Shown piece after piece: positions 4,270-64,000 of a stretch of DNA of 64,000 nt (within the stretch, counting starts at the first letter, position 1; the number at the start of each line of letters is the position of its first letter). The translations under genes were made by a program, and so were the position numbers. The stretch comes from Balanoglossus misakiensis (Eukaryota > Animalia > Hemichordata), in NCBI GenBank assembly GCA_040954595.2, contig CM082591.2:9441309-9505308 (forward strand), written 5' to 3'. Below the pieces are notes generated by a model. The model had not been told where the DNA came from. It searched no databases and saw nothing but the letters and a program-made list of their open reading frames with translations.

Positions 4270-7047
4270 ATGGCCGCCTCCACTGAAACTAACTACATGT
4301 ACATCAACGAAGCCGTCGTCGAAGACAAGTTGGTGGAACTATCGGTAGAGTTTCCGGTCCTCTACGATGTAAGATCGCCCGACTTCAAAAACCGGGACAA
4401 AAAAGAGCATGCGCTCCAAGAAATTGAAGCGCAACTTGGAAAAACAGGTAAGAGTTAAAAAGTACGATGTTGCCGACGAAATAAAAGTGGAGACGCCGTC
4501 AAAACATGCAAAAGGCCCACCAGCAAAACAAATGTGGCCAGGGCCACGGTACAGACTATCGGAAGAAGTTGTATCAAGCACAACTTTACGTGACAATACG
4601 TTTCAATAATGTGCAACAAAATAACAACTCTCTACAGACATTGTTACAATAAATGGCGTACACAAAGCACCAATGAATGAATGCCGTTAACGGTCTAGTC
4701 CAGACGTCCTGCACGTGTCGAGCCTGTAATTTATTCACGTAATATGCCTGTTTCTTAATAAATTACAGACTCGACACCTGCCGGTTTCAGGATATACTAG
4801 TAAATTGCACATTGATTCAAACCATTGTCCGCTCACGTCACGTTTGATTTTGCAGGCGATCCAAGCTTCGTTTGCATGTCGATCATACATAATAGGACCA
4901 AAAATGTTTGTGTTCACATTTGAAAATGCAAGGCAAATTGTCTGTTGCCATATACACTGGGGTAGTTATTAGGGGGGGGGGTGTACTTGAAAAATATGAC
5001 AGCAATGTCTTGTTGAACAGGCATTCAGTACTTTGATACTTAGTAAAATTGTGAATTGTATTGTTCACTATGATTGGTTATATACTGTAGTTATTGTGTT
5101 TGACTTGATGATAAAATGGTGTTATTTTTCAGCTGAATGGGTTAAAATAAAATTGAGATACCTTCGAAACAATTATGTAAAGGCTAAGAAACCCCCGAGT
5201 AGTGGAAGCGCCCGGAACACCACGAAGAGAAGGAGCTGGCTGCTTGACAAGCTCCAGTTCCTGGACCCATTTATTGCGTCCAGGCCATCAATTTCAAATT
5301 TGGATACAGTAAGTATTTTATTCAATTCAAATAGCACATACACAAAAAAAAATTAAACAACTGCAGAATTTTTTCTTCTTATTGTTTATTTTTTAGAATG
5401 CACTATACATAACTCAATGCATTTTACATAAGTTAAAATCAATAAATATACAAGCAAAAGCAGAAAGATAAATATTTAGTTTAAACAGACATTCCAAATT
5501 ACCAATATATAAACATTTAACAATCTGTTCCTATAATACCAATAAAATACATTTTAAATTAGCCATGTATAAAAACATCACCTTCCCCAATTCCAAATAG
5601 TGCATAAGAAAAAGGTCATAACATTGCACCAATATTGCACCAATCTCAACTAGTATAAGTTGTTTCATTTGGCAGTGAAAATTTCAAAACGTGACCATGT
5701 GGTTTTGCCATGGGACTGAGCCTACTCCAGAAAAGTAGGTAGTCAGAAGATTACGCTGGGTTTTTGCATCTTTACTTGGATTTCTGTCAAGTGCTGGTGC
5801 CAATCCAGTAAGTGCTGGATCATTGCGCCAGGCACCAGCAGTGAATGTGTGGTTTTCAATATCTTCACTGTCAGAAACACTAGTGTAGCCATGTTTGTTT
5901 TTATCCACCATAAAATTGTGCAAACAACAGGCTGACAAAACCAAAGCTGTAACTCTATCGGGGTTGAGATTGATTGATGTGTGAAAAACACGAAACCTAT
6001 TTGCGAGAATCCCGAAAGCATTTTCAACAATCCGCCGAGCACGGGAGAGGCGATAGTTGAAAATCCTTTCCCCTCTCTCCAGATGCCTATGAGGGTAGGG
6101 TTTCATCAAATGTGTTGACATTGGGAAGGCATCGTCCCCAATGATATGGTAGTTTATCTTGTTCCCGGCTACATTATCTGGTGGAGGTACGTTTAGGCAT
6201 TTGGCATCCAACGCGTTTTTCAGATCAGAGTGCTTGAACACGCCTGCATCACCTTCACGACCAGCTGCCCCAACATCTACACATATGAACTTATAATTTG
6301 CATCAACTAACGCTAAAAACAATATACTAAAAAAATGCTTATAATTAAAAAATTCTGACCCGCTGTTGTGTGGCTGCACTATGGCAATGTGTTTGCCATC
6401 TATTGCCCCAATACAACATGGGTAGTTCCACTTCTGTTTGAATTCATCAGAAATGATTATCCAGTCTTCCATGCATGTTGGAGTCTGAAACAAAATGGAA
6501 TATAAGGATAAGAAGTTATTAAATGTGATTTTTTTTATCATTTCAGCCATCCCCATCCTTAGTGGATGATGAAGTTAATACTAGCAGGCATAATGAAGAT
6601 GAAGAACGCACATTAAATGTTGAAGATTCCAATGATGTAGAACCAAAACAACCAGTAAAATCAAAAAATAAATCTTCAAAACGCCATCAAGCTGAAATGG
6701 AGTATGAACTTATAAAGGGGGTTGCTGCATCGATTGCAGATAGAAATAAAAGACAAAAAAAAGATGATCAGGAAAACAGTGCCATACAGTCCTTCGGCAC
6801 CTATGTGTCCCAGGCACTAAAAGACCTTGAGCCCAGGGTGAGGCATTTGGCCCAGCATCGTATTAACAACATTTTGTTTGAGGCTCAGTCTGGAACCTTA
6901 ATGCCTGCCAATTATAGTCCCTACAACTACCAGCAGCCTGCCCATCCCTTTACACAACAAAACTGGAATGTACCACATCAGCAATGTTCTGGTCCCAATA
7001 ATGTTGATGTACCCTTTGATGAATCACCAATCTATACTCAAATGTAA
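4270..7047 (+). CDS. Harbinger DNA-binding protein, MADF domain plus C-terminal BESS-like motif (284 aa)
   Basis: Exons 4270-4447, 5133-5308, 6547-7047, all GT-AG with matching phases (855 nt). MADF-like LVELSVEFPVLYDVRSPDFKNRDKKEHALQEI...LRNNY...WLLDKLQFL; BESS-like SFGTYVSQALKDLEPRVRHLAQHRINNILFEAQ. Confidence 0.88.
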
Positions 7048-8338
7048 AAAGTCCCATTTAGCTGAAATTTTCATTATTTTATTTAGAAAGTGTTCTTGTT
7101 ATAAACAAATGAGACCAAAGCGTCCTTGACACTATTTATTGCATTAGTTTTGGTTAATTTAAAAGTTTACTTACAAGTATACATTTAAAGGGGAACAAAT
7201 TAGAATATAAATCATTAATGGGAGCTGTATGCACATGGGTAATTATAAATTCCACAACTCTGTTTTTAATGTGCTATTTTATTGCACGAAATGTAGCATT
7301 TTTACAATTTATCTTGTATTATTTATTTTATTTGTCTGGGCATTTTTGCAATATTGTGTTGTTTTACATGTTATCTATTTCTGGTTATGTGTTAGTTGTT
7401 AATTTTTTCTATGCAGTAACACATTTATAGATTTATTTGTTAAAATGATAAACAAGATTATTTATTTGTTAAAATGATAAACAAGATTATTTATTTTTTA
7501 AAATGATAAACAAGATTATTTATTTGTTAAAATGATAAACAAGATTATTTATTTGTTAAAATGATAAACAGAATATGTCACAGATATGGCAAAGAACTCA
7601 TTTAAATGTCATTGTTATACAATTGATTTCTGTAATAAAATTAGCAATCAAATAATACCTTCAAATACTGTTCCTTCATTGCAGTGTATAAGGCCCTGCA
7701 TGTTTCCTCGACAATGGCTGATACAGTCCTCTCCCCTATTCTGAATTGAAAGGAAAGACTTCTGAACGTTTCTCCTAAAAAAGAAGAACAAAATTATCAT
7801 TAACTCCCAGACTAGTTAAATATATTTTAGCAATGCTGAAAATTGTTTGAAAATAGTAAAAAAAAACATGATGTCCAACATGTGCTACACAAGGTTTATG
7901 AACCTACATGTTCGGATACATTTGACCTTAACTTGAACTAGTCTGAAAACATCAACATATATTTTGTTTAATCACTTGCCAGCATTTATTTTACCTACCT
8001 GTAGCAAGGAATCGTAATGTAACAGCAAGTTTTTCACTAGGATCAACTGCTGATCGCATATTTGTGTCCTGTTTGGAAATGAGCGGGCAAACCATTGCCA
8101 GGACATCTTGGAAGGATTGCCTGTCTAGTCGATGGAACTGGCGGAAGCTTTCAGGGTCTTCAGTCCTCAACTCTTGGATCAGGTTTGCATATGCTCCTTG
8201 AGCCTGTCGTCGCAAAATCCATTGTCGAGCCCAGGTTGTTCGAGCTGCCGCTCTCAACCGGCGTCGACGTCTACGAAGCAGCAAAATAAATAATAACGCT
8301 TCTTCATCCTCTGATCCACTGGAATCTGTCAATTCCAT
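5684..8338 (-). CDS. Harbinger (HARBI1-type, DDE_Tnp_4) transposase (418 aa)
   Basis: Exons 8338-7999, 7774-7659, 6484-5684, GT-AG and in frame (1257 nt). Motifs LAVTLRFLATG, GAIDGKHI, FFNYKHFFS, IIGDDAF, FNYRLSRARRIVENAFGILANRF. Confidence 0.95.
7431..7570. repeat. 29-bp AT-rich tandem repeat (about 5 copies) in transposase intron 2
   Basis: Unit ATTTATTTGTTAAAATGATAAACAAGATT. Confidence 0.9.
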
Positions 8339-11300
8339 TACTGAACTGAAAAAGGAAAGTGCATAAAGGTTTTATTTTAACAGCCAATTTTGATTCTCTG
8401 CTTACATATACCTCAGTATAGCCGTATGAAGTGTTTCATCCAGAAAGGGAAACGTCTATCGATATTAACACTCTGTTTACCATGTTGGTGCGTGAAATGA
8501 CGTCAGCGAGCTTGAACGCAGCGTTCACAACAAATCATCAGCTGATCATGTAAACAGCCCACAGTCGACTTGTCAATATAGGTAAACTGTAGCGAAAGTG
8601 TAACGATTTTGTAAACCAATAAACTTTGCTATTTTGCTTTCGGTGTAGATAAAAGGTCAAAAGGGCCATCCATTGTACTATGCAGGCAATGCAACGCACG
8701 CCGCGACATGGGAGGTCCTAGTGTAGATCACAAACTCGTTTGCAGTTCACGGTCCCTGACTCGTACGTGGTCAGTCAGGCAGATTATTTTTATTTTTCAC
8801 TTGCTCAGACGAAAAATTATACTTGCCACGGGCGTCGGGCGATAGGAAATATCGAGACATGGAAATGTTTTCATTAGAAAAAAAAGTAGTAGTCCGTGAA
8901 GAAAGCGCATTGTACTATGCATATATTTACTTACCACAACAAGTGCTGTCATCAATGCTCGCTTTCAGTGGAGGCGGCCATCCTGTATCGTCGTCAAGTG
9001 ATGCCGGCGCATGCGCAATTAGGCTAGATACGTGAGTAAAATTACTTTGTTCGGCACACGGTGAGTAATTTTCCTCGCGAGGAAAAAAATATCAAACCTG
9101 TTGAATATCGTGATCCGCGGCGCAAAAGTAAAAAGATCAGGAAAAATCGCCCGCACACGGAAGGAAAATTGCTGAGCAAAATTCCTCGAATGACTTTTTG
9201 CTCAGCTGATTTCTCTCGTGTGCGGCGGCCTTTACCTCGAGTACCCGAAAATCATATTTGGGTATCTCATAGCGAAAACGCAAACGGGTACATTCCTTTT
9301 TACTCATTTTATGTGAAATTCGGTCATCAATTTTTATGGTCGACCGATGGCTGAAACCATAGTTGCAGGGCAGCGACACAGTGTACGATGTATACGCTCA
9401 AATTACAGAGTGCGCGTGCCACACAAACAGACGTTGACATCACACTCACAGGTCGCGCCGTACTTGACTTAGACCGTAGACTTAGAGTGTAGCTAGTTTT
9501 CAGGTACCAAAGTCGCTCATTAAATGTCGGAGGACTATAGGTGACGATCGATGTTATTTATTTGGTCAACTTTGAAGTGTTTGGTTGTTGTTTTCACGGC
9601 GAATTACGTTCTCAGCTGGGTGATCGTGCACGGTCACTCGTGACCGTGGATCGTGTCATACCGTGTCTCATTGTACCTGAACAGCTACACGAACGTGGGT
9701 TCTACGCGTTCACGCTATATCACATCTCTTTATTCTCATTGGCGCACGGGATCGACGCCCCTGTCAATCATTCTCGACTATGTCAACAAACGGCCGGAGC
9801 GTTTGTAGATTTTGCAAGGTGTACTAGTCGCTTGGTCGACGCTACCCGAAACCACAAGCTCAGTCCCAAATTCGAAACTCGCCTCACTACCAAAAACACG
9901 CTCAAGGCAAGCATGCACGCAAAAAGTATTGCAATTATTTATTAAGACAAAAAAACACCGAAAACACATGAAGCATTGAGATTTAAAAATCACCAAGCGA
10001 CTAGTAGGCTAGTCTTGGTTAAGTCCTGCTGTGCGGGCGCTCCGGCGTTCTGCCTACGATAGGTCCACAGGCAGTGCGCTAAAGCGCCCGCATACAACTA
10101 AATCTTTCAATCTACAGTTACCCATATATACGCGTTTTGTACGCTACCTTACTGCATATGAACATGATATGCAGTAAGGCAGCGAATAAAATGCTTATAC
10201 ATGTGAAGGTGTTAACTAGAGCGCCACCACTAAAGTTCATGCAGTAACGTCACAATTCACACCATGATGATACACGCAACCATTTACATCGACTGTCTCC
10301 ATCAAAATTCAACTTGCCTTCAGGCATGAACAGGTAGCGCCGTTGCTGTTTTGTTCACAACTGAATTTCAATCCGTGATTGCTTTGATATGTCATAGTGG
10401 TGCATTTAGTTAAGGCTCTCTGAAATTCTGAACATGGACAGTTTCCAAGTTGCCAGTTTGGTGGGGGGGGGGTGTGTCTGGGTTGATATTATGAAAATAG
10501 CTAATATAGGGAACAAACATTTCAAATAAATCCCCAAAGTCAGAACTACTGTACTGTTAAAGTAAAATCTGATAAATCCAGCTCGTTGACAATAAATGTT
10601 CTATGTTGGTTCACCAATTCCTATGAGAACTAAAATGTAAAGAGTCGATTCTGAGTCCATATTTCTAATCTACTGGCCTTTTTATTCCATGGAAAATGTG
10701 GGTGTATATTCGTGGGGCTTTTAATGTTACAGTTAAACTCACCCTACCAGGAAAAGGTCAGTAACTCCAAGGTGTTCCAGGAAATATGTAATTGGTTGAC
10801 GACGTATGGTTTGTAACCACACAAGTTACATCGAATAACCTGTCTGAAATCAGCAAATATGCACCGTCGTAAACCACGACCTCTTTACGGCAACACTTTC
10901 TGCGTAGCGGAGGTATTAAACGACTCTGTAACTGAATCCCAATATATTGACAGACTATCCACCAACACATTTGTCATTTTTCGAAACTGAACTATGAACG
11001 CTTAGGTGCAATTTTGTAAGCCTCGTGGTCAACTATACCAGGAATAGCAATGCCCGTTGTACTGACGTCATGTTTGACTGACGTCACAAGCAACTGTTTC
11101 TATCGTGTCCATCGATGATTGGATAGAAATCTGTGTCGTCAAAAACCAACATTTTAACGGACCACGTATTCATTTCATCCATGATTGATGAACGACACAT
11201 TTACCAAATCAACACAACGGAGACTATAGTGCTTTGCAATAGCTATCGTTATACTGCCGCATATTTGGTTAACTTTCAGCTGAAGATTTACACAGTGTAT

Positions 11301-19200: not shown

Positions 19201-22200
19201 GTATGTATGTATGTATGTATGTATGTATGTATGTGTGTATGTGTGTATGTGTATGTTTGTGTGTGTGTATGTGTGTATGTATGTGTGTGTGTATGTATGT
19301 ATATATGTATGTATGTATGTACGTATGTATGTACGTACGTATGTATGTATGCATGTATGTATGTATGTATGTGTGTATGTGTATGTGTGTGTGTATTTGT
19401 GTGTGTGTATGTGTGTGTATGTATGTATGTATGTATGTATGTATGTATGTATGTATGTATGTATGTATGTATGTATGACAGTATGTATGTATGTATGTAT
19501 GTGTGTATGTATGTATGTATGTATGTATGTATGTATGTATGTTTGTGGATATACCACATCTCATTTCACATTTCTTTCCATTTAAATATATTTGTATTCA
19601 GGAAAAAGAAATCATTTATGTGGGATGATGACTACCCATACAAGAGGAAGTCCTTCATTTGCCAAAATTTTGGTAAGTATATTGACCGCTGTTAGCAAAT
19701 TTTTTTAAATCTTAAATGTCTATAATAAAATGTTTCTCTTGCCACAATGTCTGTGTTAATGTTTACAGATTATTTTAAATACTTCTGTATTACAGCACTG
19801 TTTAGCAGGAATTGACGATAAACTGTTTTGATTTGTCAGATTTACAATTCTCAAAAGCATTGTAGACTTAATCACAGGATACATACGCTGGCCCCAAAAT
19901 AATTATGATAGTTGTTTTACATCATGGCTGATGTCCAAAAACTATCATGTTTTACCACAATGTCTGAAGACACCAGTGTTGCACTAATTAACTTAAATTG
20001 CTATGCAATTCTCCCTACCTTAAATAGGATTTTTTACCTAGGTGAATGATGAAAATCTCACATGGTTGACACAATTTCAAAATGGCCGGTTTTTGTCAAG
20101 TTTAAAAGCACATAAACTGCAACTTTTAAGATATTTATCATCATTTATTTTTTCAAACTGTACTACCATTAGCCCATGCAGATGTATGTATGTATGTAGG
20201 CACTGAACTATATACAAGTAATATAAACCCTAAATATTACATTTTCATATTTTTTCATTGCAATATTGCGCTTTTTAAAAAATTGCATCGATTTTCTTTA
20301 ATTTTTGGCCATTTTGTTATAAATTAAAGCTGCAAGCAGCATTGGAGGGGCCCAAGCATAGAGTTAATAACCATTAGACTCCATTCAGGGTTGTACCATT
20401 CAAATGCGTAGGCTGTATTTGCTCTGGATGTGGAGATATGGGGAAATAGGCAACCACCCGAAATGGAAGTCTTACAAGTACAAACACACAACCAAAGGTG
20501 AACTTCTACGTTGTAAGTACTTCAGTAAGTATACTTCAAAGGTCAGCTGAGGGTACCCAAAAATTGGGCCAAAAATTAGGATTTTTATTTAGTTCATATT
20601 CAAGACAACGGAAAATCCTCGCTGTTTGGGGTTGTAAAATTAGATATGGCCATAATAATGAGTTACGCAAGTAAGTTACAGGTGGCCCCAGGAATTTAGC
20701 ATTTCATGACGCAGAGGGTCCTACCCTACCCCTCCAAACACCTGGCTATATATGATGTGCGTGCTAACATATGGAAAGCAGGTCAATGGACACCTGAGGT
20801 CACCCAAAAATATGACAAAACATTTTCATTCCTGTTTATGTCATGTGCAACAAATCCTACATTTGCAGCCCTTTCACTTTGGCTACCATTAGTTATGCAC
20901 GTAATACATGAATCAAGCAGGTGTCGCAGGTATCCCTCTGTATTTGGCATTTCATGATAGTTTCATCCCTCCAAATACCAAAGCTGCACCTGTACAACGG
21001 GCTGAGATGTGGCACTGTACGACAGAGGTCATCCAAATCAACTTATACATTTGGGCAAAAACAAACTGACACTTACATTCGTCCCTGTGGAACAAAAACC
21101 ACACCTATTGCCCTGTTGGTTAGTGTCCAATTAAATGTACAAAATCAATGACTTAGGCAGGCTTTGGTATATCATTATGGACCCATCCGTATATGCCCCC
21201 CCCCCCCCCCCCCACACGCCAAAGCTGCATGCATCTGCTGTGGATGCTCACTAAGCAAAAGTAGGTGAAATGTCACATTAGATTGCCCATAACTTGACAG
21301 GAAAATCGGACTTCATATTGATCCATGTGCAACAAATACCACACTAGCATCCCTTTCATTGACCCCACGATTACGCATGCACATAATTGAGTTACGCAGG
21401 TGTCACAGGTGATCCCCGAATCGGGCGTATTATTTTGGTCCCATACAGCTGCATGAAGCTGCGTGCCATTATGGGCGACCTGATAACCCCCACGGCCACC
21501 TGCGGGCCAACCCCCATATTGAACGTTCAGTTGCAACGTCACGACTGAAGTAGGAACTGTTGAACGGCAACAAAGCCTGATCTCTGATTATTGCTGGTAC
21601 CATACTCCCTTCGTGCAAGAAAATAACTGGTCTGCTGACGTATTTCGGCCACATTAGCGACTGAGGGTAAAAGTCCGCTGCCGCATTACATTGAATGTTA
21701 ACCAGTGTAGCCGGGTCTGGATAGAAACATTTGAACGGCAACAGCTAACAAACTCAGTGTAATTCAATAAAACGCCCTAACACAGCCTGAACTCCGATAA
21801 TGTGTTGTCCCAAAATTCATTCCATGGAAAATAATCACTGGTCTGTTTACGTATTTCAGCCGATTTTCCAAGGACTACTGCAACCCGCCAGAAGTGAGTA
21901 GCCTGCTAATGAGATCTCCACAACATTACGTAATGGCGGTCAAAGTCCGATGCCCCAGTGTCCGTCCTCAGCCCACCAAAAAATGCGAAAAAATATTACA
22001 AAAATCTTCTTCTCAAAATCGACGTGACCTAGGACCTTGCAATTTGGCACAGGGGATTTTGGCCACATGGTCTACAAAAATCGCGAAAAGAATGTACATG
22101 CCCCCATTAACGTGCAAATTAGGTCAATTTGAAAATTTCGCTCGATTATAGCTACAAAGTCACGTGACAAATTACAAATTCAAAGGGCAGGTGCACCAGT

Positions 22201-36246: not shown

Positions 36247-37116
36247 TTACGCATATTTTGAACAATTTCTAGCTATATGATCGTAACGCCCACAATTAAA
36301 ACATGCACGGGAATTAAATTGACTATGTCGAGGAAAACGTTGGGTAGAGTGCCCAGTAAAATCATATCTGTTCCTCTTTACCTTATAGTCTATTGTTCGT
36401 TCTCTTGCTCTGTAATTCGGCGATTTCTTCTCTCTTTTTGTCGATCGTCCTCGATGATCTGCCGCGCTTGATTTGGTCTTCATTTCTTCATCTTCTTGTT
36501 TCATCTCGTCAATCCGTGTTGAGATTTGTTGTAAAAGACCCGCTTCTGGCTCGTCTGTCTCTGGTAATCCTGCCACGACCTCTGCTGTTCGAGCATGTTT
36601 GTACGCTGTTTCGAAGTCCTTAGGTGACATTCCCGCTACGAACTTTAGTATGTCCGGTCTCAGTCCGTTCATGAAGAAAGATAGTAGTTCCTCATCAGTC
36701 TTTTTCGCTTTTTCTGCTTTTTCGCATATTAATTCCGCATATTGTTCAACAGTCTGGTCCGGCAGTTGCTTCAGGCGAAACAGTTTCTCGTCATACAGCC
36801 ACATCGGACCGCACTTATCAAAACGAGCGAGGAAGACATTTTGCAGTGTCGTCAAGTCATTTTTCTTTTCAGCAGACAGTCTGTAGAACCATCGCTCCGC
36901 TTCACCAGTCAAATATAGTCCGATTCCTTTAAGCCGTTTCTCGTCTGACCATTGCTTAAAGTCAGCAAAGTCTATATATTTTTTCCACCATCGGTGTGCA
37001 TTCTCAGTCTCTGTACCCGAAAAGAAACCTGGGCCTACCTGACCTCCAGCTCTGAGTGTAACCTGTCGTATTTCCGATAATTGACTGTTCATGTCGTTTA
37101 GCATCTCGCGATCCAT
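36247..37116 (-). CDS. gag: Gypsy-type Gag (capsid domain plus CCHC zinc knuckle)
   Basis: Open frame; first ATG at 37116 (the ORF track starts at GTG 37179). Motifs FSGTETENAHRWW, YLTGEAERWF, LKQLPDQTVEQY, FMNGLRPDI, and knuckle CFNCGRYDHIARNC. Confidence 0.92.
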   Translation of the reverse strand: MDREMLNDMNSQLSEIRQVTLRAGGQVGPGFFSGTETENAHRWWKKYIDFADFKQWSDEKRLKGIGLYLTGEAERWFYRLSAEKKNDLTTLQNVFLARFDKCGPMWLYDEKLFRLKQLPDQTVEQYAELICEKAEKAKKTDEELLSFFMNGLRPDILKFVAGMSPKDFETAYKHARTAEVVAGLPETDEPEAGLLQQISTRIDEMKQEDEEMKTKSSAADHRGRSTKREKKSPNYRARERTIDYKVKRNRYDFTGHSTQRFPRHSQFNSRACFNCGRYDHIARNCSKYA

Positions 37117-37175
37117 GCTGTAATCTTTCCGCTGGACGTCGCCGTTTCTGTCTCCGATGGATTTGTTTCGTCTAC

Positions 37176-37191
37176 CCACGTATCTCCACCA
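37176..37191 (-). promoter_or_regulatory. Primer binding site, probably tRNA-Ala
   Basis: TGGTGGAGAT begins 2 nt after the 5' LTR and is complementary to the ...ATCTCCACCA 3' end typical of tRNA-Ala. Confidence 0.7.
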
Positions 37192-37953
37192 TGTATTACG
37201 GCTGGTTTCTCATGATTGTTCATGCATCGGGGAATCTGTAGCGATGAGGTATCGGGCTCTGACGAGAACAGTGATCCACGGAGACACGTATCTGATTCAC
37301 GTTCATTTATTGTCCGGAATTATATAGTACATCAAATACGCCCAGTAAAGTACATGAGGAAGGGAACGAGCTCAGTAGCCTGAGGTACTCCCATCTCCCG
37401 TTAGATTATTCTTCCTAACTTTGGAAACAAAGTTCTCTTATAATTACTTTTCTCAAGGCGTGGTTAATAATGTAAAATATCACAAATACAATGTGTTACA
37501 ATTTCATTGGGCATCAGTCAACTCTATACGTACCAATTTACATAAAGTGTTATATAACAAAGTCAGTTCGGTGATGATTGACAATCAGAGCAGTCAGGTA
37601 AACACCCGCTCTCCCTATCTACTTCAAATACATAAAATCAAATACTATCAAACATTGACATTCCCGAGCTCTGGCTTAATTAACCCTTGAAATCGTATTT
37701 GACCTTTATACAGATCGTAACACCATGTTGCAATGTTGGTTCACGATCGTAATTTCTCTTTCTGACGCCGTTTCGGTAAGAAAATGACACTGATATGCCA
37801 CAAAAAACAATTGTTGATATAATATAATAGCAATAACCCCCGCCTCAGTCAGGTATACACTCGATTTGGGTACAATTCGCTCCATATAGCACTCGCCTGA
37901 TGGCTCGTGCTATATGTCTCGAATTGTACCCAAATCTCGGGTTATTGCTTAAT

Positions 37954-38073
37954 CTTTACGGCCCTGATACGGGTTTTGCGGCCCGAGGTCGTACGGCGGA
38001 AGCGCCCGACCGCAGGGAGGGCGCGAATCGCCGTACGACCGAGGGCCGCAAAACCCGTATCAGGGCCGTAAAG
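37954..38073 (+). repeat. 120-bp GC-rich hairpin, probable end of another Crypton-like element
   Basis: 30-bp perfect outer stem, CGAG/CGAG internal loop, inner stems and a CC-GCA-GG tip. Confidence 0.8.
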
Positions 38074-38954
38074 GTTTTATCATATGCCTTTTTGAAAGAT
38101 AATCTACAAGAAATTAATAAAAATACACATTCTGTAATATTTTGGAATGTAAATATTACGTTTTTATCTATCGTTTTGAAGTGATCAATCCCGTAGCATA
38201 GAGCCGTATTCCTCCAGTTCTTGCGGAGTGATATGCACGATGCCATTTGTTTACATTCTATTGCGCGTGAGATATAGACGCGCTCGAACTCACACAGTCG
38301 AGCGCGAGCAAAACATTATTTTTTCTTCGCGACGATCGACGCTGACAGTCACACATTAATCAAATCAAATCATCAATTTTACTATTCATATTTCCAAATA
38401 AAGCTCTACAACATGCAGCGATTGTGGAAGAGGATGTGATTCGGTAGCGGCATAGGACGTACACACACTGCAAGTGCACTAGTCACTGACACCACACCAG
38501 AAAAATTAAATTCAGAACGTAGCAACGGCAACTTTCGAATCTCGCGCAATAAACACAAAACTAGTTCCGGATAGTGAACGCGTCTTCCAAATATGGTCAC
38601 CGGGCCGGGGCGTGATAAGCAAAAAAACTGCACGGATGTGAGGGCGCTTTCCCCCATAGACTTTACATGGGCACGTGAATATAGGCATATGATAATACAT
38701 ATTAAAACATTTCCATGACCCGTACATGACCTTCCAACCCGTGCTGTCAGTATGAATGCGTCAGGTTGTCTAAATGCTCTACAAACACCCCAAAACTTAA
38801 GTGCACCTGTAGTAATTTAATCACTAAACTCAATTAGAAACTTGAAAGTTAACTAATTTTCAGGCGAAATTTTACACATTTCCTGTCCCAAAATGTTGAA
38901 TTCGACAACCACATACAAGGATATGGGGTCACGCGGGGTCATGAAAGTGACTAG

Positions 38955-39015
38955 CTGCAATGATTGTAGCGGGTGCTGCTAGGTTACCTAGCAGCACCCG
39001 CTACAATCATTGCAG
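38955..39015. repeat. Perfect 61-bp palindrome (30-bp arms, 1-nt centre)
   Basis: CTGCAATGATTGTAGCGGGTGCTGCTAGGT-T-ACCTAGCAGCACCCGCTACAATCATTGCAG. Confidence 0.97.
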
Positions 39016-41144
39016 ATAGAAATTGACTTATTTATCATGATAACATGATCAGCTGTTATCGAGACACGGGGTCATGAGCAGATGTCTTACCCAGTCTTCG
39101 CAAAGTTTGTCCAATATTTCATGATCTTCAGCGACATAGTGACCTCCTATGGTGGCATTGTCCAGTTCTTCAGCCTCAGGCCAAAGTGACCTCCGAACGC
39201 CTACTGGAGATCTTTCCCTTGGGCAGCCTTCATCCATATGATTCGCCACAGTGAGTTTTGCAGGTATGTGAGACAGGTGGTACATGTATACATTGGCTCC
39301 AGCTTGCTTTCAGTGTAAAGAATATTCTCGCAAACTGAACTTTTCTAGAATGGGTCTCACTCTCACAAAAGCGTACAGAGCTGACGATGACGCTTCGAGT
39401 CCAATTTATGTGACGGGCAAGATTATGATGGCAAGGCACAACTTGAGTGTACGCAAAGAACTTACCTGAAGCGGAGAAATAGACCCAGTGAAATGTCTTT
39501 CAGGATAAACAAAACTTAACAGAAAATTGAATATTCAACGGAGCTGAAAAATCCAAGTCTCAAATCATGGTTGGAGTACCAGAACTTTCAATTTTCCCAC
39601 TATGCCTTGCGATAAAACTGTTCTCATCTAGCAGCAAGCGCCATCTACGTTCGAATCTCTCTCTCTCTCTCTCATATGTCAAAACTTTATTACATTACCA
39701 TACATATGCCTAGGCGACTGGTACGATGCGTGCGGCGATGATGATGTAGACTGTGATGTCTCCGCTGGTATTATTATTTGCGTTGCCACAATTCTTGGGA
39801 TGGCCCCCGTCCATGTTGACATTCGTGGCGGGGCCGAAGAAGCGATGCCGTAAGGGTACGGAGCCGCCATCGGATGTCGGTCTGAGAGGCTGCTGTGATA
39901 TCTACACGAATTCGCTTCGACCGGGGCAATTAAATCTTCCACACGGTAGCCCATTTTCTTGCTTTCGCCGAAATGTGGATTGCAATACCTCGGCCGGTAG
40001 TCTGACGGACGTACTCCGTAGGCTGGATTTCTCGGTGGGGATCGAGATTGGGCGGAGTAGATGGGATTTCTTTTCTGGCGTTGCGCGGCATGGCCGCCGT
40101 TACCTTCGCAAAATTGACGAAATGTGTTTTTCAGAGACGACATCGGAAAACTTAGATCAAACGGGTCACTTTCGCAAGTCGCCGGCGCCGTAGTACCACG
40201 TTTTAAAGCGTGCGCGTCTTGCGTGTATGAATGAATCTGACTTGAGTTGAAACTTTGTGATCCAATCAAGCATCCTTTTCTGTAGAAGAAGCTTCCATTC
40301 TTGGAGTGGGTGGGGAAGAGTTGACAAAATAACTTGTGGAATCAAAGTATTCGCCTCCTCATAACTTCACCGATTTCTGAGGTGAATGTATTTCATAAAT
40401 TGCCACCTCCATATCCTACCGTCATCGGAAGGTATATAAACAGATGAGAACTTCAATGAGACCAAAGTTGGTTAGACGCACCATCACCAAGTACCCGGTG
40501 GACGCGTCCTAACCGTGGGCGTTTCAGAGATGATTGACAGAGCAAATCAATCGAAAAGGCTGACACGTGCCAAGTACAATACCTGTCAATTATATCTCAG
40601 AATTGGGTTTCAAAAGAACCAACTTATTACTTTTTTCTATCAGAAAGACATAACACTTTACTGATCTGTCTTTCGTATACATTTTGCCTGATTATGGATA
40701 GGCCTATTTTACTGAAGAAAGGGGCCAACCAATAACAAATTTTACCACAAAAACGGTATTTCGATGAATACGAAAGGTTTCGCGGGTGACGTCATACGAG
40801 GGCCATAAAAATGTACATATACGCCTACCATACGGGTAAGCGGTGGTGTCATCTCTGTAATTCTTAGCCAATTATAATAGATTTTCATGGGTGAAAATTC
40901 AAGGCTAGGAAAAAATGGACAGCGTCATCCGGTTTTGAACCAACTTCAGCTGATTATGTATCGTGTATGTCGTTTTCGCAATTTTATAAAAGTAGAGAAG
41001 ATCTTCAAATAAATTACTGATCCATCTAGAACTATGTACAACTTCTTCTACAATAATTCAGCGTGTGTATAAAATTTTATAAACAAGCGAACAAACGTGT
41101 GAGGTGTTGTTGCCCCACCGAGAAATATACCCCATCACCACTAC

Positions 41145-56627: not shown

Positions 56628-59600
56628 ATTAGGGGACCAAGCGCCTGAGGGTGCTTGGTCCCCTTCTGTTATTGCTGGAGTTTTTTCTTCTTTCTCTTTG
56701 AGTCGTTTTTTTGCTCCCGTTTTTCTCAAAAATCCCTGGACGCACGTCTATGAAACTTGGCACGGTGCTTGGGGTACATGCTTACTGGTGCACCTGCCCT
56801 TTGATTTTGTAATTAGTCATGTGACTTGGTGGCTATAATCGAGCGAAATTTTCAAATTGACCTTATTTGCACGTTAATGGCGGCATTTAAATTCTTTTCT
56901 CAAACTTTGTACACCATATGACCAAATTCCCCTGTGCTAAATTTCAAGGTCCTAGGCCACGTCGATTTTGAGAAGAAGATTTTTGTAATATTTTTCGCAT
57001 TTTTTGGTCGGCTGAGGACGCACACTGGGGTATCGGACTTTCACTGTCATTACGTAATCCTGCGGAGGTCTCATTAGCAGGGTACACACTTCCTTGGAAA
57101 ATTGGCTGAAATACGTAAACATTGATTGCGTTCCCGATTTTTGGGGTACCGTAACAAGATATCGTAACCGAATTTCAGAATAAGAAAACGCCAGCTTATG
57201 ATTATCGCCCACAGTTCAAGAGTTCTTACACAACCAGTGTACATCATTATCTTTTTGGGCAAACTCGTGTCTATTTCGCCCGGTCATATCAACTTATAAA
57301 TACATATATAGTTCTATTTCTATAATTTTACATACAAACAAATATTTCAATCAATACATTTCTTCTTTACAAAATATACTTCGTTATTCTACAATGAAAA
57401 GTCCAACTTGCTTTGTTATTCTTTTCACTGTATTTCGAAACATGGATTTTGTTTATTATCTTTAACGTTTTTACAGATTGGCACGACTTTTGGCTCCGCA
57501 TTTTTCCCACATTTGTATGATGTGCAGTTTGATAATTCAGTAATCTTAATGTTAAATTGTGCAACTTTATTCAATTTCCCAATAATCTACTCCCCTGTCT
57601 TACAAAGATTTAAACTCGCCGGTTGATCTTTTATAAACATATATATTTATTTATATACCTGGTTTCCAGTACATTTTAAATAAAATTAGTCAATGTTATT
57701 GTAATTAAACTTAGGTTACTCCTTTTTTATTAAACAATATCTAGTAACGTTTAAATGTTGTCCAATTTGGTATCACGGTTAGAAATTCCGTATTCATCAA
57801 TTAAATTAAGCACCCAAGCTAGTATTTTTTCTCTACTGATATAGACTTGCATATCACCTGCCAACTGAGAAAAAAACATGTTTTTATTGATGAGGATACT
57901 GTTGAAGTGCAATACTAGTTAGTTTATAATGTCAATAGTAATACATAGTGGAGAAAGTATACGTATTGTATGTAGTTAAAATTCGCAAACTTTTTTGTTG
58001 TTGTTTTCACGAAAAAATATTTGGTCAGATGACCAGGTTGATCAGCTAATTGATAGGTATAAAATATGCATGCTGTTGCCAGAATAGCCACCAAATATTT
58101 ATGCATTCATTGAATAAAGATCAAATTGTTGATTGCCTACTGAAGCGGCTGCACATGCGCAGCTGCTGTTTACTAGTTGCCAGTCGAGCCCCCCCCCTCG
58201 TAACTGTTCGATGGAGCGTCGCGACTCGAGTTGCGCGTCGAGTTGCCTACCGAGTTGCCTTGTGTAACTCGGCCGTTAGTATCTCGTGCGCACGACTCAG
58301 TATCTCGTGCTCACGAGATAGTTTCTTGTGCGCACGACGTAGTATCTCGTGCTCTCGAGATAGTATCTCGTGCACACGACTTAGTATCTCGTGCGCACGC
58401 GATACTGCCTCATAGTATATTATTAGCACTGGCATTATTAACTATGAAGTTTCATGCACTTTATTGCGGATGCTTGGTGATTTTCACTTTCATTATGTAA
58501 GGAAAGAAGCCATTCCTTTATATTTCAACACGGGTTTCAACTATTGTGAAATGTTGGCTTTGAAAGCAAATATCACGGTTTTATTCTGAGCTTGTGAAAT
58601 TTAAAGAGAATATTGTACAAGAATGGATTGTACAGACGAAAACACCAGTCAGATGCCACCGACGTTATATCATACCTAAGCTATCAACCGGTCGGCTATA
58701 CATAAATACAGATGGATGAAATGTCTTCAACATGGTCCTGTAATTGTCCAAGAAAGCGCCCAGCTACTTCATCATATATCTATCAGTAAAATATGTCGTT
58801 AGCGACGTCGTAACCAGCATGTTCTTCACAATGGCAATCCTACACTTTAACTTCAATCTACAACTCTAAATTTGGCAACGTAGCCAATACCCGTTTCAGT
58901 GTTCAATAAGTGTATAACTCAAAGCAAAGCAAAATTTAGAACTATTATCCACTCTTCAAAACATTGTGATGAAATGCTCGAGACACGGATCTGGAAAGCC
59001 CTTAGTCTGAAATTAGCAGTGACTTTTTGGTGACATTGAATGTGACATACAAAATAATTAAACTGTCTGGCCACGTAACCTCCCGCCTTGATCATGCGAA
59101 ATTATTTCGCACGACTTAGTATCTCGTGCTCACGAGATAGTTTCTCGTGCGCACGACTTAGTATCTCAGGCTCACGAGATAGTATCTCGTGCGCACGACT
59201 TAGTATCTCGTGCGCACGACTTAGTATCTCGTGCTCACGAGATAGTATCTCGTGCTCACGACTTAGTATCTCGTGCGCACGAGATAAAAAAAATATTTGC
59301 TTTACGAAATGTCCCTAACAGGCTTTCATACTATCCAGACCAGGCTACACTGGTTAACATAGCGGCAGCGGACTTTGACCCTCAGTTGCTAATGGGCGAG
59401 TCAGATTTCATTAGCATTGTAGTCACATGTAGTGGGTATTAGTTCGGGAAATCGGCCGAATATTTAAGCAGAACAGTGATTTTCTTGCACGAAGGGAGTA
59501 TGGTACCAGCAATAATCAGAGATCAGGCTTCGTTACCGTTCAAAAGTTCCTACCTCAGTCGTGACGTTGCAACTGGACGTTCAGTATGGGGGTTGGCCCG

Positions 59601-60437
59601 CAGGTGGCCGTGGGGGTTATCAGGTCGCCCGTAATGGCACGCAGCTTCATGCAGCTGTATGGGACCAAAATAATACGCCCGATTCGGGGGTCACCTGTGA
59701 CACCTGCGTAACTCAATTATGTGCATGCGTAATTGTGGGGTCAATGAAAGGGATGCTAGCGTGGTTTTTGTTGCACATGGATCAATATGAAGTCCGATTT
59801 TCATGTCAAGTTGTGGGCGACCTTATGTGACATTTCACCTACTTTTGCTTAGTGAATAACAGCAGATGCATGCAGCTTTGGCGTGGGGGGGGGGGTATAC
59901 GGATGGGACCATAATGATATACCATAGGCGGGGTCACCTGTTGCACCTGCCTAAGTCATTGATTTTGTACATTTAATTTTACACTAAGCAACAGGCCGAT
60001 ATGTGGTGTTTTAGTTCCACAGGGACGAATGTAAGTGTCAGTTGGTTTGTGCCCAAATGTATAAGGTGATTTAGATGACCTCTGTCGTACAGTGCCACAT
60101 CTCAGCACGTTGTACAGGTGCAGCTTTGGTATTTGGAGGGATGAAACTATCATGAAATGCCAAATACAGGGGGATACCTGTCACACCTGCTTGATACATG
60201 CATACCTAATGGTAGGCAAAGTGAAAGGGCTGCAAATGTAGGATTTGACATAAACAGGAATGACATTTTTTTGTCAAATTTTTGGGTGACCTCAGGTGTC
60301 CATTGACCTGCTTTCCATATGTTAGCATGCACCACATATATAGCCAGGTGTTTGGAGGGGTAGGGTAGGACCCTCTGTGTCATGAAATGCTAAATTCCTG
60401 GGGCCACCTGTAACTTACTTGCGTAACTCATTATTAT
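56628..60437 (+). mobile_element. Non-autonomous Helentron/HINE-like element, copy 2, with internal insertion 57122-59330 and cut at 60437
   Basis: Starts with the hairpin AGGGGACCAAGC..GCTTGGTCCCCT. Segments 56665-57121 and 59331-60437 match the reverse complement of 22320-21845 and 21725-20652. Confidence 0.7.
58277..59285. repeat. Two arrays of 21-bp palindromic tandem units (about 58277-58400 and 59110-59285)
   Basis: Units TAGTATCTCGTGCGCACGACT and TAGTATCTCGTGCTCACGAGA, with no spacers. Confidence 0.9.
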
Positions 60438-60987
60438 TATACACCTACTGCTGTAACCTATGGAGTTCCGTAATATAATAATTCGCGGTATCACCGTACA
60501 ATAATTATTCAAATGAGGACGCGGAGTCCAATAACACCAGGGTTATTGGACGCATTGTGACTTTGACCTCACAGGACTGGTGATCAATGTAAACAATGAT
60601 GATATTAACTCTACTCTGACAAAAAATTATATTAAAAATACACAGCCGTTATTAAACAAAATTATTGGTGACCCAAGATACGAAATAAGTCAAAATCCAC
60701 GCTGAAATTTCAGTTGAAGGAATCTGTGAACGAACAGGCGACCGCGTTCATTTCAAGTTCCAGAACAGTCTACCCGATCGCCATAAAAGGAGTGCTTCAT
60801 TTAAATAAATGAATATTCATAAGAGAAGCGTTGCTATAGTATCATGTGGCCTCAGCCAATCAGATCGAATAAAATCTCGATCATGCATTGTACACGAAGT
60901 AGGTCACTACGTCAACAAAAATATTGGCAGTTCCGGGTTTTGTAGTTGTCGTCTGCTACTATCCGAACGCACAACAAGTATTGCAAG

Positions 60988-61380
60988 ATGCCGAAGGTTG
61001 TGATCCACGGTGTTTTTGCTGTGGGAATGATCCATTACGACGGTCTTTTGACCAAGGGTGGCGTGTACCGTTTGCTCCGTGAGAAGAACAACCCTCACGA
61101 CCCTCATGCCATTGCCATTGTTGAGAATTCTGCGGAAGCCCGGCACATTCTTGGCCATTTGAAGAGAGATGCGGATGCATTACTTGCTGGAGTAATGGAT
61201 GCACGTCTTTCTTCAAATGGCGTATATTATTTGAAAGTACAGTGCCGTGCTCCCGTTAATTCTGGGCGAAGTGGCATTGGACAAGAATGTACGGTCGGCT
61301 TCCTACTCAAGCTGGCCGATGTAGATCGAGCAACAGACATCGTGCCCGACAAGGGTTTCCGGGTTACCTACATACAGTAA
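60988..61380 (+). CDS. Stand-alone HIRAN-domain protein (130 aa, intronless)
   Basis: MPKVVIHGVFAVGMIHYDGLLTKGGVYRLLREKNNPHDPHAIAIV...ILGHLKRDADALLAGVMD fits the HIRAN pattern vG..Y...L.RE..N..D..AI.V...lG.l.r..a..la..mD. A CCAAT box lies at about 60855. Confidence 0.8.
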   Translation: MPKVVIHGVFAVGMIHYDGLLTKGGVYRLLREKNNPHDPHAIAIVENSAEARHILGHLKRDADALLAGVMDARLSSNGVYYLKVQCRAPVNSGRSGIGQECTVGFLLKLADVDRATDIVPDKGFRVTYIQ

Positions 61381-61399
61381 CTGAAAAACCCGAACAAAC

Positions 61400-61438
61400 G
61401 GCCCTTTTCAGGGCCAACACATTCTCAAAGAAGAGAAC
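61400..61438 (+). promoter_or_regulatory. Replication-dependent histone-type 3' processing signal (stem-loop plus putative HDE)
   Basis: CAAAC-GGCCCT-TTTC-AGGGCC-AACAC (stem-loop 61400-61415) starts 20 nt after the HIRAN stop. Purine-rich CAAAGAAGAGAAC follows at 61426-61438. Confidence 0.88.
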
Positions 61439-62639
61439 TACCGTTTAAACAACAAACACACTTTACTTTGTCATGAATAGTTCAGAGCTTTTCCTACACA
61501 TTACTATGTTAAACATGGCCATTTTCAGAGATTTAATTCATCTTCCAGAAACAAAATTATTCAATCTGTGAAAAGGGGATGGCATGCATTGTGTCAGTTC
61601 ATCTTCATCAGAATTTATGAACCAAGCCAAAAAGGCAAAATCTTTTCATTGATGGGGAATGGGTTCAACCTCAATTCAACAATCAAATTCCTGAGTTTTG
61701 TTGGTATTTTTAGGAAATGTGAATGATAAACTAAAAAAGGCACAATCGTACCCAGAAATTTTAATACGCACATGGTTCTCATTCATTTATTGTTTTCTCT
61801 CAATAACAAATATACCAAGCATAATTACGACATCATATACAATTTCTTGTTTAATCAAGCATACCCAGTATTATCCTCAGTACTGAGCAACATTGACAAC
61901 AGTCAATATATGCACAACCAGTATTGTTATTGTTTGAAAACGAGTGATCAAGTTACACATTTTCTAATAAACTGTAGCAGTGGAGTTCAATCGTAAGTAC
62001 TCTCTACTAAGAAGAATACTTAGTGTTACATGCTGAACTGTGTATATATCAAAAAAGTTGATACACAGATCAAAATTGTTGAGAAATCCTACAACAGTTA
62101 CATCTATACTCTCCCTTTCAACATTCTCATGACATACAATAAAGGCAATTCATAATGTGAGTTATCAACAAATAGTACCAGTACACATACAATTCAGAAA
62201 CGTTTGATTGCATTTCAATACCTACTCTTGTTTGTCATTGCTTAGTTATCAAATTAACTGTACGAATAGGGACAATTATGTCATATAGACTGTAACAATA
62301 TTTAGCTTGATTGTGTGTGCAGAGGCAGACCCAGGGAAACACCATACATACCTGAAAGACGAATAACAATTTATGTCAAATATGTAATACATGTACACAA
62401 AATCAAGGGAAGCATTCAACAGATCTTGCGCAATATAGTTCTAAATATAAAAATGAATTTAAACAGTGTAATCAACACGAGGTTTCAAGCAAAACAATAA
62501 TGAAAATTATGTGACTGACTATTGCTGGATCAGTGCAAAATACCATAAATAGGAAAGTAACACCAAGGCATTTATATACACAGGAGTTCATTAAATGAGC
62601 AGCTGTCATATTTCAATGACATCCAACTACACCAAACCT

Positions 62640-64000
62640 TTATGTCTCAACCAGGTCAGACTCTCCACTTACTACTTTCTTAACATCAACTACCAGCTCA
62701 ATCCATTTAGCCTTTGTAGCTTTTTGTTTTTTCAGTGTGTCAAATTTTGGGGTTAGGACTGACTTAGCATAATCAGGTAGGACTGTTAAGATAACCTCTA
62801 TTTCCTCCATAAGTTGTTTGATTGTTTTAGATTCCAATTTATTGAGTGTTGACCTCTCATTTTTGATTACAACCAATATTGGCCTATGACATCTTTTTGC
62901 AGGAAATTTACCTGCCCATAGGTATTCAGTTATGAATTCCATCCGTCTATTACGGGCCTTCATATCAAACTGCAATAACTCTTCATCTAATTCCTCCCCG
63001 TGTACATTAACTATTGGTCTTCCCTCACGTGGTATCAGATATTTCCTGTTTCTAAGAAGGACTCTAAATTTATGAATATCATTTCCACTTGGAGGAGAAA
63101 TGCGATCTCTGTTTTCGCTCCTATTTAAGCCTATTGACTTAAAAACTCTATTTCGAAGATCAACTAGAGTGTCATGATTTCGGATAACAGTTTCCCATTT
63201 TTTGTAGTCAGGTACTCCTGAAATCCAAGATTTGATTGATTTATTGTATTCCTCTAATACAAAACCTAGCCCCTGGTGTTTATTATCTTTACAAGATCTA
63301 GAAACAGTTTCATACATTTGTAAGGTGGTACAGAGGGGTTCAGGTTGACAAAGACGATCATACTCATCCCAGGCTTCAATTTCCTGATATCGTGGATGGT
63401 TGCGACCAAACCATATGGGAGCAAACAACTGCCTACCTGTTCTTATTAGTTTTGAGTCATTAAGCCGAACGCCTTTCCGGAATAAATGAATTCCAAGACA
63501 GTGTGGAAGCATAGTGTACCATATGAAGTGAATTGTGTCATCTGCACTAGCCTGATCTCTTACCCACTCTAGGAAGTCATAAGGGGATGGGGTTCTTGAA
63601 TCATTACAATAGGACTGAAGAAGCTCTAGCCAAATACCATCATGAAATTTGCAAAAATTGTCAAAACTTTGGTGATGGTCACAACATTTCTTAAAGAAAA
63701 CCTGAGCTTTATCACTTAAGAATCCCTGTGAGCGGCCAAACTCAGCATAAATTATGTGCCAATACATTTCAGCAAATGATTTTAACATGTTGATTTCCTC
63801 GTGGCCAGGTCCTGTCCTCAAAAGTACCCAGTCGAACTCATTTGAACGATCAATTGCTGTCCTCACTAAATGTTGTGGAAGGCCATCACATCGAACAATA
63901 ACCCACTCCCTATTTCCTTTCCCATTATGGTATTTGTGGATCCCAGCATGTTTCCCAATATATCGGAGGACTTCAACAAGTGCTCCTTGTGATGATGGAT
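62640..64000 (-). CDS. C-terminal part of an Academ/DUF6589-like RNase H-fold transposase
   Basis: The frame stays open to the window edge (PSSQGALVEVLRYIGKHAGI...WVIVRCDGLP). Motifs CDGLP, LLRTGPGHEEINM, DHHQSF, RNHPRY and VLEEYNKSIK resemble the D...GxxH...E-xx-N-xxx-K spacing of Academ-type transposases. The family call is by eye only. Confidence 0.6.
   Translation of the reverse strand, partial: PSSQGALVEVLRYIGKHAGIHKYHNGKGNREWVIVRCDGLPQHLVRTAIDRSNEFDWVLLRTGPGHEEINMLKSFAEMYWHIIYAEFGRSQGFLSDKAQVFFKKCCDHHQSFDNFCKFHDGIWLELLQSYCNDSRTPSPYDFLEWVRDQASADDTIHFIWYTMLPHCLGIHLFRKGVRLNDSKLIRTGRQLFAPIWFGRNHPRYQEIEAWDEYDRLCQPEPLCTTLQMYETVSRSCKDNKHQGLGFVLEEYNKSIKSWISGVPDYKKWETVIRNHDTLVDLRNRVFKSIGLNRSENRDRISPPSGNDIHKFRVLLRNRKYLIPREGRPIVNVHGEELDEELLQFDMKARNRRMEFITEYLWAGKFPAKRCHRPILVVIKNERSTLNKLESKTIKQLMEEIEVILTVLPDYAKSVLTPKFDTLKKQKATKAKWIELVVDVKKVVSGESDLVET

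What the first reader, a model, noticed from the sequence alone, without database searches (positions are those of the whole stretch)
60988..61438. Non-histone HIRAN gene with a canonical histone mRNA 3' end (stem-loop plus HDE)
Seen: an intronless 130-aa ORF whose stop is followed 20 nt later by GGCCCTTTTCAGGGCC with A/C-rich flanks, then CAAAGAAGAG 10 nt further. I saw no AATAAA until about 62138, and there is a CCAAT box upstream. Known: this 6-bp stem/4-nt loop plus purine-rich HDE is bound by SLBP and U7 snRNP and in metazoa is essentially restricted to replication-dependent histone mRNAs, which are intronless, non-polyadenylated and S-phase or oocyte regulated. HIRAN domains (HLTF/Rad5) bind free 3'-OH ssDNA ends at forks. 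Inference: a mobile element uses the histone pathway to make a DNA-3'-end-binding protein during S phase or cleavage, coupling transposition or gap repair to replication.
Basis: partly seen in the sequence, partly recalled or inferred. Interest (0 to 1): 0.92.

Follow-up and report, generated by a model that had tools for sequence, protein, structure and literature searches.

The report
HIRAN gene with histone mRNA end
A small animal gene for a HIRAN-fold protein, a fold known to grip free DNA ends, finishes in the hairpin and downstream signal thought to be reserved for histone messages; its closest relative appears to keep that signal and distant relatives lack it, so this branch likely switched to the histone route, though no transcript has been seen.

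Summary
Observation confirmed, with one correction: the first AATAAA after the stop is at 61966, not 62138. The 130-aa ORF (60988-61380) is a stand-alone HIRAN domain (Pfam E 1.8e-9; model pLDDT 92 matches HLTF HIRAN). It is followed by a Histone3 stem-loop above Rfam's cut-off and an AAAGA-bearing HDE. No histone-coding remnant lies nearby. The closest relative, P0001 (76% identical), lacks the stop and reads on through residues that match the stem-loop (8 of 8 codons) and HDE (3 of 4), while the neighbouring codons differ (1 of 7). This is evidence from one relative, at protein level only. The gene belongs to an animal HIRAN family. Distant members have no stem-loop (0 of 16 loci; 12 informative), and 7 of 16 sit beside pogo-like transposases. 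This locus has no pogo remnant; its neighbour is a weak DUF6589-like ORF, so mobility here is not shown. New: a very stable 68-nt hairpin inside the ORF (z -8.9), apparently kept across the six-member clade. Best reading: a transposon-derived HIRAN gene whose message is likely cut by SLBP/U7 and made in S phase or oocytes. RNA evidence is missing.

The parts
60988..61380 (+). Single-frame ORF, 130 aa, stand-alone HIRAN domain. H16, H37 and D38 align to HLTF Y72, Y93 and D94.
61395..61420 (+). 26-nt histone stem-loop element; 6-bp stem and 4-nt loop at 61400-61415. Predicted mature 3' end about 61420 (five nt after the stem, by the rule in preprint 10.64898/2026.10.14.759114).
61426..61437 (+). 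Purine-rich histone downstream element; AAAGA at 61427-61431 is complementary to the conserved U7 box UCUUU (PMC5054213).
61438..61446 (+). Short stretch after the HDE that is still shared with P0001 (3 of 3 codons); likeness ends here (0 of 9 beyond).
61154..61221 (+). 68-nt hairpin inside the coding sequence (codons 56-78), 29 of 32 positions paired, -43.2 kcal/mol; function unknown.
60853..60864 (+). CCAAT box in the context CAGCCAATCAGA, about 130 nt before the ATG; a second, reversed CCAAT lies at 60923. Promoter role inferred.
60809..60820 (.). Palindrome ATGAATATTCAT. Its likeness to POU/Oct sites is recalled, not tested; it is not the H2B octamer, which was not found in 60401-61000.
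61966..61971 (+). First AATAAA downstream of the gene; a possible read-through poly(A) site.
62640..63998 (-). Convergent neighbour, open at the window's end, at least 452 codons, weakly DUF6589-like. Whether it belongs to the same unit is unknown.
   Evidence: (Pfam E 0.045, below cut-off)

Best explanation
This is an intact stand-alone HIRAN gene from an animal family often found beside pogo-like transposases, and it carries a canonical histone stem-loop plus HDE, so its message is likely cut by SLBP and U7 snRNP at about 61420 without a poly(A) tail and likely supplies a predicted DNA-3'-end-binding protein in S phase or in oocytes and cleavage embryos. Shown: HIRAN sequence and fold; the three pocket positions named for HLTF are kept or conservatively changed; the 3' signal; its absence in distant relatives; the pogo neighbourhood of 7 of 16 distant loci. 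Inferred from one relative's read-through protein: the signal has been held by selection. Inferred from the tree: the signal was gained on the branch to the six-member clade or inside it, probably by capture from a histone gene. Inferred from the known pathway: U7 processing and S-phase or maternal timing. Most speculative: the protein caps 3'-OH ends at forks or transposon excision gaps, or competes with host HLTF/Rad5, and histone-type timing puts it there when a sister chromatid is available.
For: Rfam hit above gathering score, on the gene's strand, 19 nt after the stop; 0 of 100 shuffles. P0001 matches the window's in-frame read-through at 8 of 8 stem-loop codons and 3 of 4 HDE codons, against 1 of 7 between and before them and 0 of 9 beyond (Fisher p 0.0014 and 0.00017). 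Pfam, AlphaFold2 (pLDDT 92.3, pTM 0.86) and Foldseek (6KCS, E 2.5e-6, TM 0.71) agree on HIRAN. In 35 aligned members H16 and D38 are each kept in 34. No histone Pfam hit in 90 stop-to-stop segments of 59300-62700. The window's clade of 6 has SH-aLRT 100 and nests in a 61-row family with 98. Distant loci: 0 of 16 Histone3 hits; HTH_psq, DDE_1 or transposase likeness beside the gene in 7 of 16.
Against: No RNA evidence of any kind. Conservation rests on one relative, seen only as a protein, and that relative lacks the stop, so it may be a damaged copy or a mis-call. The blocks for the tests were drawn after I had seen the match. The DNA of the other four clade members could not be read. The stem is 19 nt from the stop, closer than the 23-31 nt typical of model animals. 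The Rfam score clears the cut-off by 0.6 bits. The HDE can fold into a weak 5-bp hairpin of its own. No pogo remnant or terminal repeat at this locus, and none of the 7 pogo-adjacent genes is in the window's clade. The tree is the quick version; the careful search did not finish.
Confidence: 0.58

Rival explanations
1. A passive chimera: a HIRAN cargo gene landed in, or replaced, a histone gene and still carries the old promoter and 3' end, but the unit is silent or the signal unused; P0001 is only a younger or gene-converted copy of the same accident.
For: No transcript seen; P0001 lacks its stop; short stop-to-stem distance; histone 3' ends are multicopy, so conversion could keep them alike (inference).
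Against: The ORF is intact with its pocket residues; no histone-coding remnant; 0.26 substitutions per site separate the two proteins while the signal's codons are unchanged and those beside it are not (probability 0.001 under even decay).
Confidence: 0.2
2. A domesticated host gene: the HIRAN cargo has left its transposon for good and is now a host replication-fork or DNA-end protein that is co-regulated with histones, perhaps as a dispersed member of a histone-like multigene family.
For: No pogo remnant or terminal repeat here; a distinct, well-supported clade of about 130-aa proteins with a long stem branch; CCAAT boxes and no clear 5' splice acceptor, unlike many distant loci. The 3' processing would be the same as in the best explanation.
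Against: It sits among repeats next to a DUF6589-like ORF; the five close relatives come from short contigs, two of them on several contigs, as multicopy DNA would; synteny could not be tested.
Confidence: 0.17
3. The stem-loop and HDE are a chance look-alike.
For: Rfam score only just over the cut-off; 4 chance-like matches of a similar pattern occur in the viral collection, in unrelated contexts.
Against: E 2.8e-6, right strand and place, 0 of 100 shuffles, and the same signal readable in P0001.
Confidence: 0.03

Closest known systems
Metazoan replication-dependent histone genes (Rfam RF00032 stem-loop, HDE, SLBP, U7 snRNP, CPSF73)
   Same: 16-nt stem-loop with G-C at stem position 2 and U at loop position 3, A/C-rich flanks, purine-rich HDE with AAAGA, short 3' UTR, uninterrupted short ORF, CCAAT upstream.
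   Different: The ORF is not a histone. The stem is 19 nt from the stop against 23-31 typical. No histone gene is seen nearby. PMC4604434 (abstract start and passages) calls these histone mRNAs the only known non-polyadenylated cellular mRNAs and found only them cross-linked to SLBP in HeLa cells.
HIRAN domain of HLTF/Rad5 (Pfam PF08797; PDB 6KCS, 4XZF, 4S0N) and bacterial or phage stand-alone HIRANs
   Same: Fold (TM 0.71) and pocket: D94 kept as D38; Y72 and Y93 replaced by H16 and H37.
   Different: No helicase or RING part; 24% identity to HLTF; it belongs to a separate animal family of 120-140 aa proteins. PMC4666394 (passage) mentions stand-alone HIRAN only for bacteria.
pogo-like DNA transposons (HTH_psq plus DDE_1 transposase) with a HIRAN passenger, as in loci L021, L025, L026, L029, L031, L032, L033
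   Same: Same HIRAN family.
   Different: Those genes have no stem-loop, several have AATAAA close to the stop and a splice-acceptor-like stretch before the ATG, and none has the coding hairpin; the window has no pogo transposase. I found no paper on this passenger.

Membership tests
Histone-type 3' end (SLBP/U7 substrate) | 6-bp stem, 4-nt loop, G-C at stem position 2, U at loop position 3, A/C-rich flanks | tested here: met
   Rfam RF00032 34.6 bits against 34; fold; features as listed in the preprint
Histone-type 3' end (SLBP/U7 substrate) | Purine-rich HDE complementary to the U7 box UCUUU | tested here: met
   AAAGA at 61427-61431; box from PMC5054213
Histone-type 3' end (SLBP/U7 substrate) | Extended pairing with the host's own U7 snRNA | not testable with these tools
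   no host genome is held
Histone-type 3' end (SLBP/U7 substrate) | Stem-loop a few tens of nt after the stop | tested here: inconclusive
   19 nt to the core; typical 23-31, median 30
Histone-type 3' end (SLBP/U7 substrate) | No intron | tested here: inconclusive
   the ORF is one frame and aligns end to end with relatives; a 5' UTR intron is not excluded
Histone-type 3' end (SLBP/U7 substrate) | Non-polyadenylated RNA ending about 5 nt after the stem, SLBP-bound, S-phase regulated | not testable with these tools
   needs RNA data from the host
Replication-dependent histone gene | Encodes a histone | tested here: not met
   HIRAN only; no histone family among the Pfam hits of 90 segments
HIRAN domain (PF08797) | Profile match and fold | tested here: met
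HIRAN domain (PF08797) | 3'-OH pocket (HLTF D94, Y72, Y93) | tested here: met
   D38, H16, H37 by the alignment and PMC5773155; conservation
HIRAN domain (PF08797) | Binds ssDNA 3' ends | not testable with these tools
   needs a binding assay
pogo-like transposon | HTH_psq/DDE_1 transposase beside the gene at this locus | tested here: not met
   tblastn of L021, L025 and L031 transposase pieces against the window: nothing better than E 0.26, none near the gene
pogo-like transposon | Terminal inverted repeats and target duplication around the gene | tested here: inconclusive
   no convincing pair in 59300-64000; the far end may lie outside the window
DUF6589 (Academ-type, by earlier notes) element | Neighbour is a DUF6589 protein and shares termini with the HIRAN gene | tested here: inconclusive
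   Atlas 0.90 with low recognition; Pfam E 0.045, below cut-off; the ORF runs off the window

The most novel reading that the evidence does not exclude
A lineage of transposon-borne HIRAN genes has dropped splicing and polyadenylation, taken over the whole histone expression programme (promoter, stem-loop, U7 processing, maternal storage) and gained a conserved coding-region hairpin. It would be a true non-histone client of SLBP and U7 that floods S-phase and cleavage-stage cells with a DNA-3'-end-binding protein to steer repair at forks or excision gaps in the element's favour.
Probability: 0.3. Interest if true: 0.9.

Novelty: new variant of a known kind. Interest (0 to 1): 0.72.

Why it matters
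The papers read here state that replication-dependent histone mRNAs appear to be the only messages finished by the stem-loop/U7 route (PMC5054213, PMC4604434). A conserved non-histone client would break that rule. The family also holds both states, members with the stem-loop and members without, so the gain of a 3' processing mode can be dated and tested. It would give mobile DNA a simple way to time a DNA-end-binding protein to replication and to egg stores. The test is cheap: 3' end mapping and SLBP or U7 knock-down.

Tried and rejected
No host genome is held, so copy number, synteny, host U7 and host histone HDEs are open. No RNA holder listed; this is no evidence either way, and no reads were laid. 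Single-sequence fold failed (pLDDT 33); the 35-row alignment worked. DNA of close relatives was not found: viral contigs gave 20 distant HIRAN loci at 29-43% identity and none with A3; metagenome contigs none with A1; genome contigs none with A3 and one 18-residue match with A1, judged spurious; no phage match. Stem-loop patterns in viral contigs: 0 of 35 matches have a full stem (2-4 of 6 pairs), and 4 matches of a second pattern lie in unrelated contexts. A stem-loop peptide signature was sought in the tails of all stored proteins and found only in P0001; most end at their stop and say nothing, while P0005 of the sister group reads on about 20 residues without it. Neighbour ORF: no homologues. 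The coding hairpin matches no Rfam family at E up to 5. A decayed histone gene abutting the ORF was rejected at the level of coding remnants, not as an origin of the signal. Literature: no report of a non-histone or transposon gene with this end, or of a HIRAN passenger in pogo elements, in searches (listings only); DUF6589 gave one unrelated preprint; one search gave nothing. The AcademH paper named in earlier notes is not held.

Full report
1. The observation. The ORF is real: 60988-61380, 130 aa. The hairpin core lies at 61400-61415, 19 nt after the stop, and CAAAGAAGAG begins at 61426. Rfam Histone3 covers 61395-61440 at 34.6 bits (cut-off 34, E 2.8e-6) and is the only gathering-level Rfam hit in the window. 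The pattern occurs once and in 0 of 100 shuffles. AAAGA at 61427-61431 is complementary to the box UCUUU that PMC5054213 (passages) calls universally conserved in U7. One error in the finding: AATAAA occurs at 61966, before 62138. Upstream are CCAAT at 60856, a reversed CCAAT at 60923 and the palindrome ATGAATATTCAT at 60809; the H2B octamer was not found.

2. The protein. Pfam HIRAN E 1.8e-9. AlphaFold2 with a 35-row alignment gives pLDDT 92.3, and Foldseek ranks HLTF HIRAN first (6KCS, E 2.5e-6, TM 0.71). PMC5773155 (passages) names D94 as reading the 3'-OH and Y72 and Y93 as pinching the last bases. By the alignment these are D38, H16 and H37 here. In the 35 rows H16 and D38 are each kept in 34; position 37 is Y, H, F or W in 27. 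DNA binding is therefore predicted, not shown.

3. The family. Searches gave 3 hits among 15 candidates, 41 representatives and 17 hits among the 7,998 candidates scored. Most are unnamed 120-140 aa proteins; two cluster mates are named from Mytilus. A quick tree of 70 rows (careful search unfinished; left out: P0033, P0073, P0074, cluster mates, and L022, L028, L034-L036) gives a 61-row family (SH-aLRT 98) and inside it a clade of the window's protein with P0001-P0004 and P0060 (100). The host is an unnamed animal; a marine invertebrate is my inference from the family and from the window's other genes.

4. Is the signal conserved? DNA of the five close relatives could not be fetched. But P0001 (76% identical, 0.26 substitutions per site) lacks the stop and reads on in frame, and tblastn aligns that tail to the window's 3' flank. 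By codon: 1 of 5 identical between stop and stem-loop, 8 of 8 across the 26-nt element, 0 of 2 in the spacer, 3 of 4 in the HDE, 3 of 3 just after it, 0 of 9 beyond. Fisher p is 0.0014 for the stem-loop against its neighbours and 0.00017 for stem-loop plus HDE against the rest; even decay at 76% would give 1 of 7 or fewer with probability 0.001. Limits: one relative, blocks drawn after seeing the match, residues not bases, and indels could hide flank likeness.

5. Distant relatives differ. Sixteen metagenome loci have no Histone3 match at E up to 1 and no stem-loop after the gene. Twelve have a stop and at least 90 nt beyond it; L028 and L034 are cut off and L035 and L036 are broken. Six of the 12 have AATAAA within 80 nt after the stop and a seventh overlaps it; in AT-rich DNA this is weak. 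An acceptor-like stretch precedes the ATG in 7 of the 14 loci scored, three of them near-copies, and not in the window. Seven of 16 loci have a pogo-like transposase beside the gene: HTH_psq in L021, L026, L029, L031, L033 and, just under the cut-off, L032; DDE_1 in L021 and L031; BLAST likeness in L025. None of these is in the window's clade. So the family is transposon cargo at least in part, and the histone-type end looks like a gain on one branch.

6. This locus. No pogo remnant near the gene, no convincing terminal repeats, and no histone hit in 90 stop-to-stop segments of 59300-62700. A 1-kb repeat with a second copy in the window ends at 60437. The convergent ORF at 62640-63998 is weakly DUF6589-like and has no sequence homologues in the searches made. 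Earlier notes of this scan treat DUF6589 as an Academ-type transposase; I could not test that or read the paper. Mobility of this copy is thus not shown.

7. A second structure, not in the finding. Codons 56-78 (61154-61221) fold into a 68-nt hairpin of -43.2 kcal/mol, z -8.9, 0 of 200 shuffles. Only 5 of 6,393 sampled 70-nt windows of the 64 kb fold as well, and 0 of 3,000 synonymous recodings do; the best 72 nt in 13 distant-family ORFs reach -16.6 to -27.5. The peptides of P0001, P0002, P0004 and P0060 allow 30, 30, 28 and 30 of 32 Watson-Crick pairs in the same register; 0 of 2,389 control stretches reach 29 and 2 reach 28. The arm codons are better kept than the rest (15/15, 15/15, 12/15, 13/15, 14/15 against 81, 66, 62, 65, 54 of 107), and P0003 lacks 10 residues at the hairpin's top. 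Against: shared descent explains much of this, the 5' arm also holds conserved HIRAN residues, and the substitution tests were mixed (p 0.015-0.31). Its role is unexplained.

8. Mechanism. Shown: the anatomy above. From the known pathway (preprint 10.64898/2026.10.14.759114, passages and section 9; PMC5706932, PMC8243935, passages): SLBP binds the stem-loop, U7 pairs with the HDE, CPSF73 cuts five nt after the stem, and the RNA is destroyed at the end of S phase. Inferred: this gene is handled the same way and yields a free HIRAN domain during replication or from egg stores. Speculative: it caps 3'-OH ends or competes with HLTF/Rad5. The stop-to-stem distance of 19 nt is shorter than the typical 23-31 nt, which may weaken decay control.

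9. What is known. [quoted passage not shown] The 2026 preprint looked downstream of histone genes, has no occurrence of 'non-histone', 'transpos' or 'HIRAN' in its main text, and its supplements were not seen. PMC13525598 (passages), PMC4666394 (one passage) and PMC11798991 (an author-name false hit) add nothing on such genes. Searches listed no report of this arrangement; subscription papers are mostly outside the library. Unchecked notes of this scan describe other invertebrate non-histone genes with such ends and pogo elements with HIRAN-like passengers; they are leads, not support, but they suggest the pattern recurs.

10. Verdict. A real and well-formed histone-type 3' end on an intact non-histone gene of a transposon-associated HIRAN family, with indirect evidence of conservation and none yet of expression. 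New variant of a known kind; interest 0.72.

Noticed in passing
window 61154-61221: Very stable hairpin inside the HIRAN coding sequence whose two arms encode the clade's best-kept peptides; function unknown.
   Followed up: partly
L021, L025, L026, L029, L031, L032, L033: Stand-alone HIRAN genes beside pogo-like transposases; in five loci the transposase frame begins within about 80 nt of the HIRAN stop, and L021's transposase ends in a PHD finger.
   Followed up: partly
P0001-P0004, P0060: All five close relatives come from contigs under 800 nt against 6 of 28 other members tallied (Fisher p 0.002). This may mark a short multicopy unit, but shared data sets could explain it.
   Followed up: no
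window 62640-63998 (-): Open DUF6589-like ORF with no sequence homologues found; possible Academ-type transposase by earlier notes.
   Followed up: partly
window 60526-60551: Perfect 10-bp inverted repeat with a 6-nt spacer, holding two opposed CCAAT words, about 90 nt from the end of the upstream repeat.
   Followed up: no
window 59454-60437 and 20652-21650: Two inverted copies (90% identical) of a 1-kb repeat with about 243-bp internal subunits.
   Followed up: no
window 58276-58406 and 59108-59286: Two arrays of a 21-nt partly palindromic unit.
   Followed up: no
window 5684-6574 (-), 6529-7047 (+), 7991-8371 (-): DDE_Tnp_4 (Harbinger-type) transposase pieces with a convergent second ORF.
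   Followed up: no
window 36247-37209 (-): Retrotransposon gag with zinc knuckle, between two copies of a repeat near 34902 and 37379 that may be LTRs.
   Followed up: no
window 37861-38040 and 38931-39030: The most stable 70-nt hairpins of the window (down to -60 kcal/mol); not examined.
   Followed up: no
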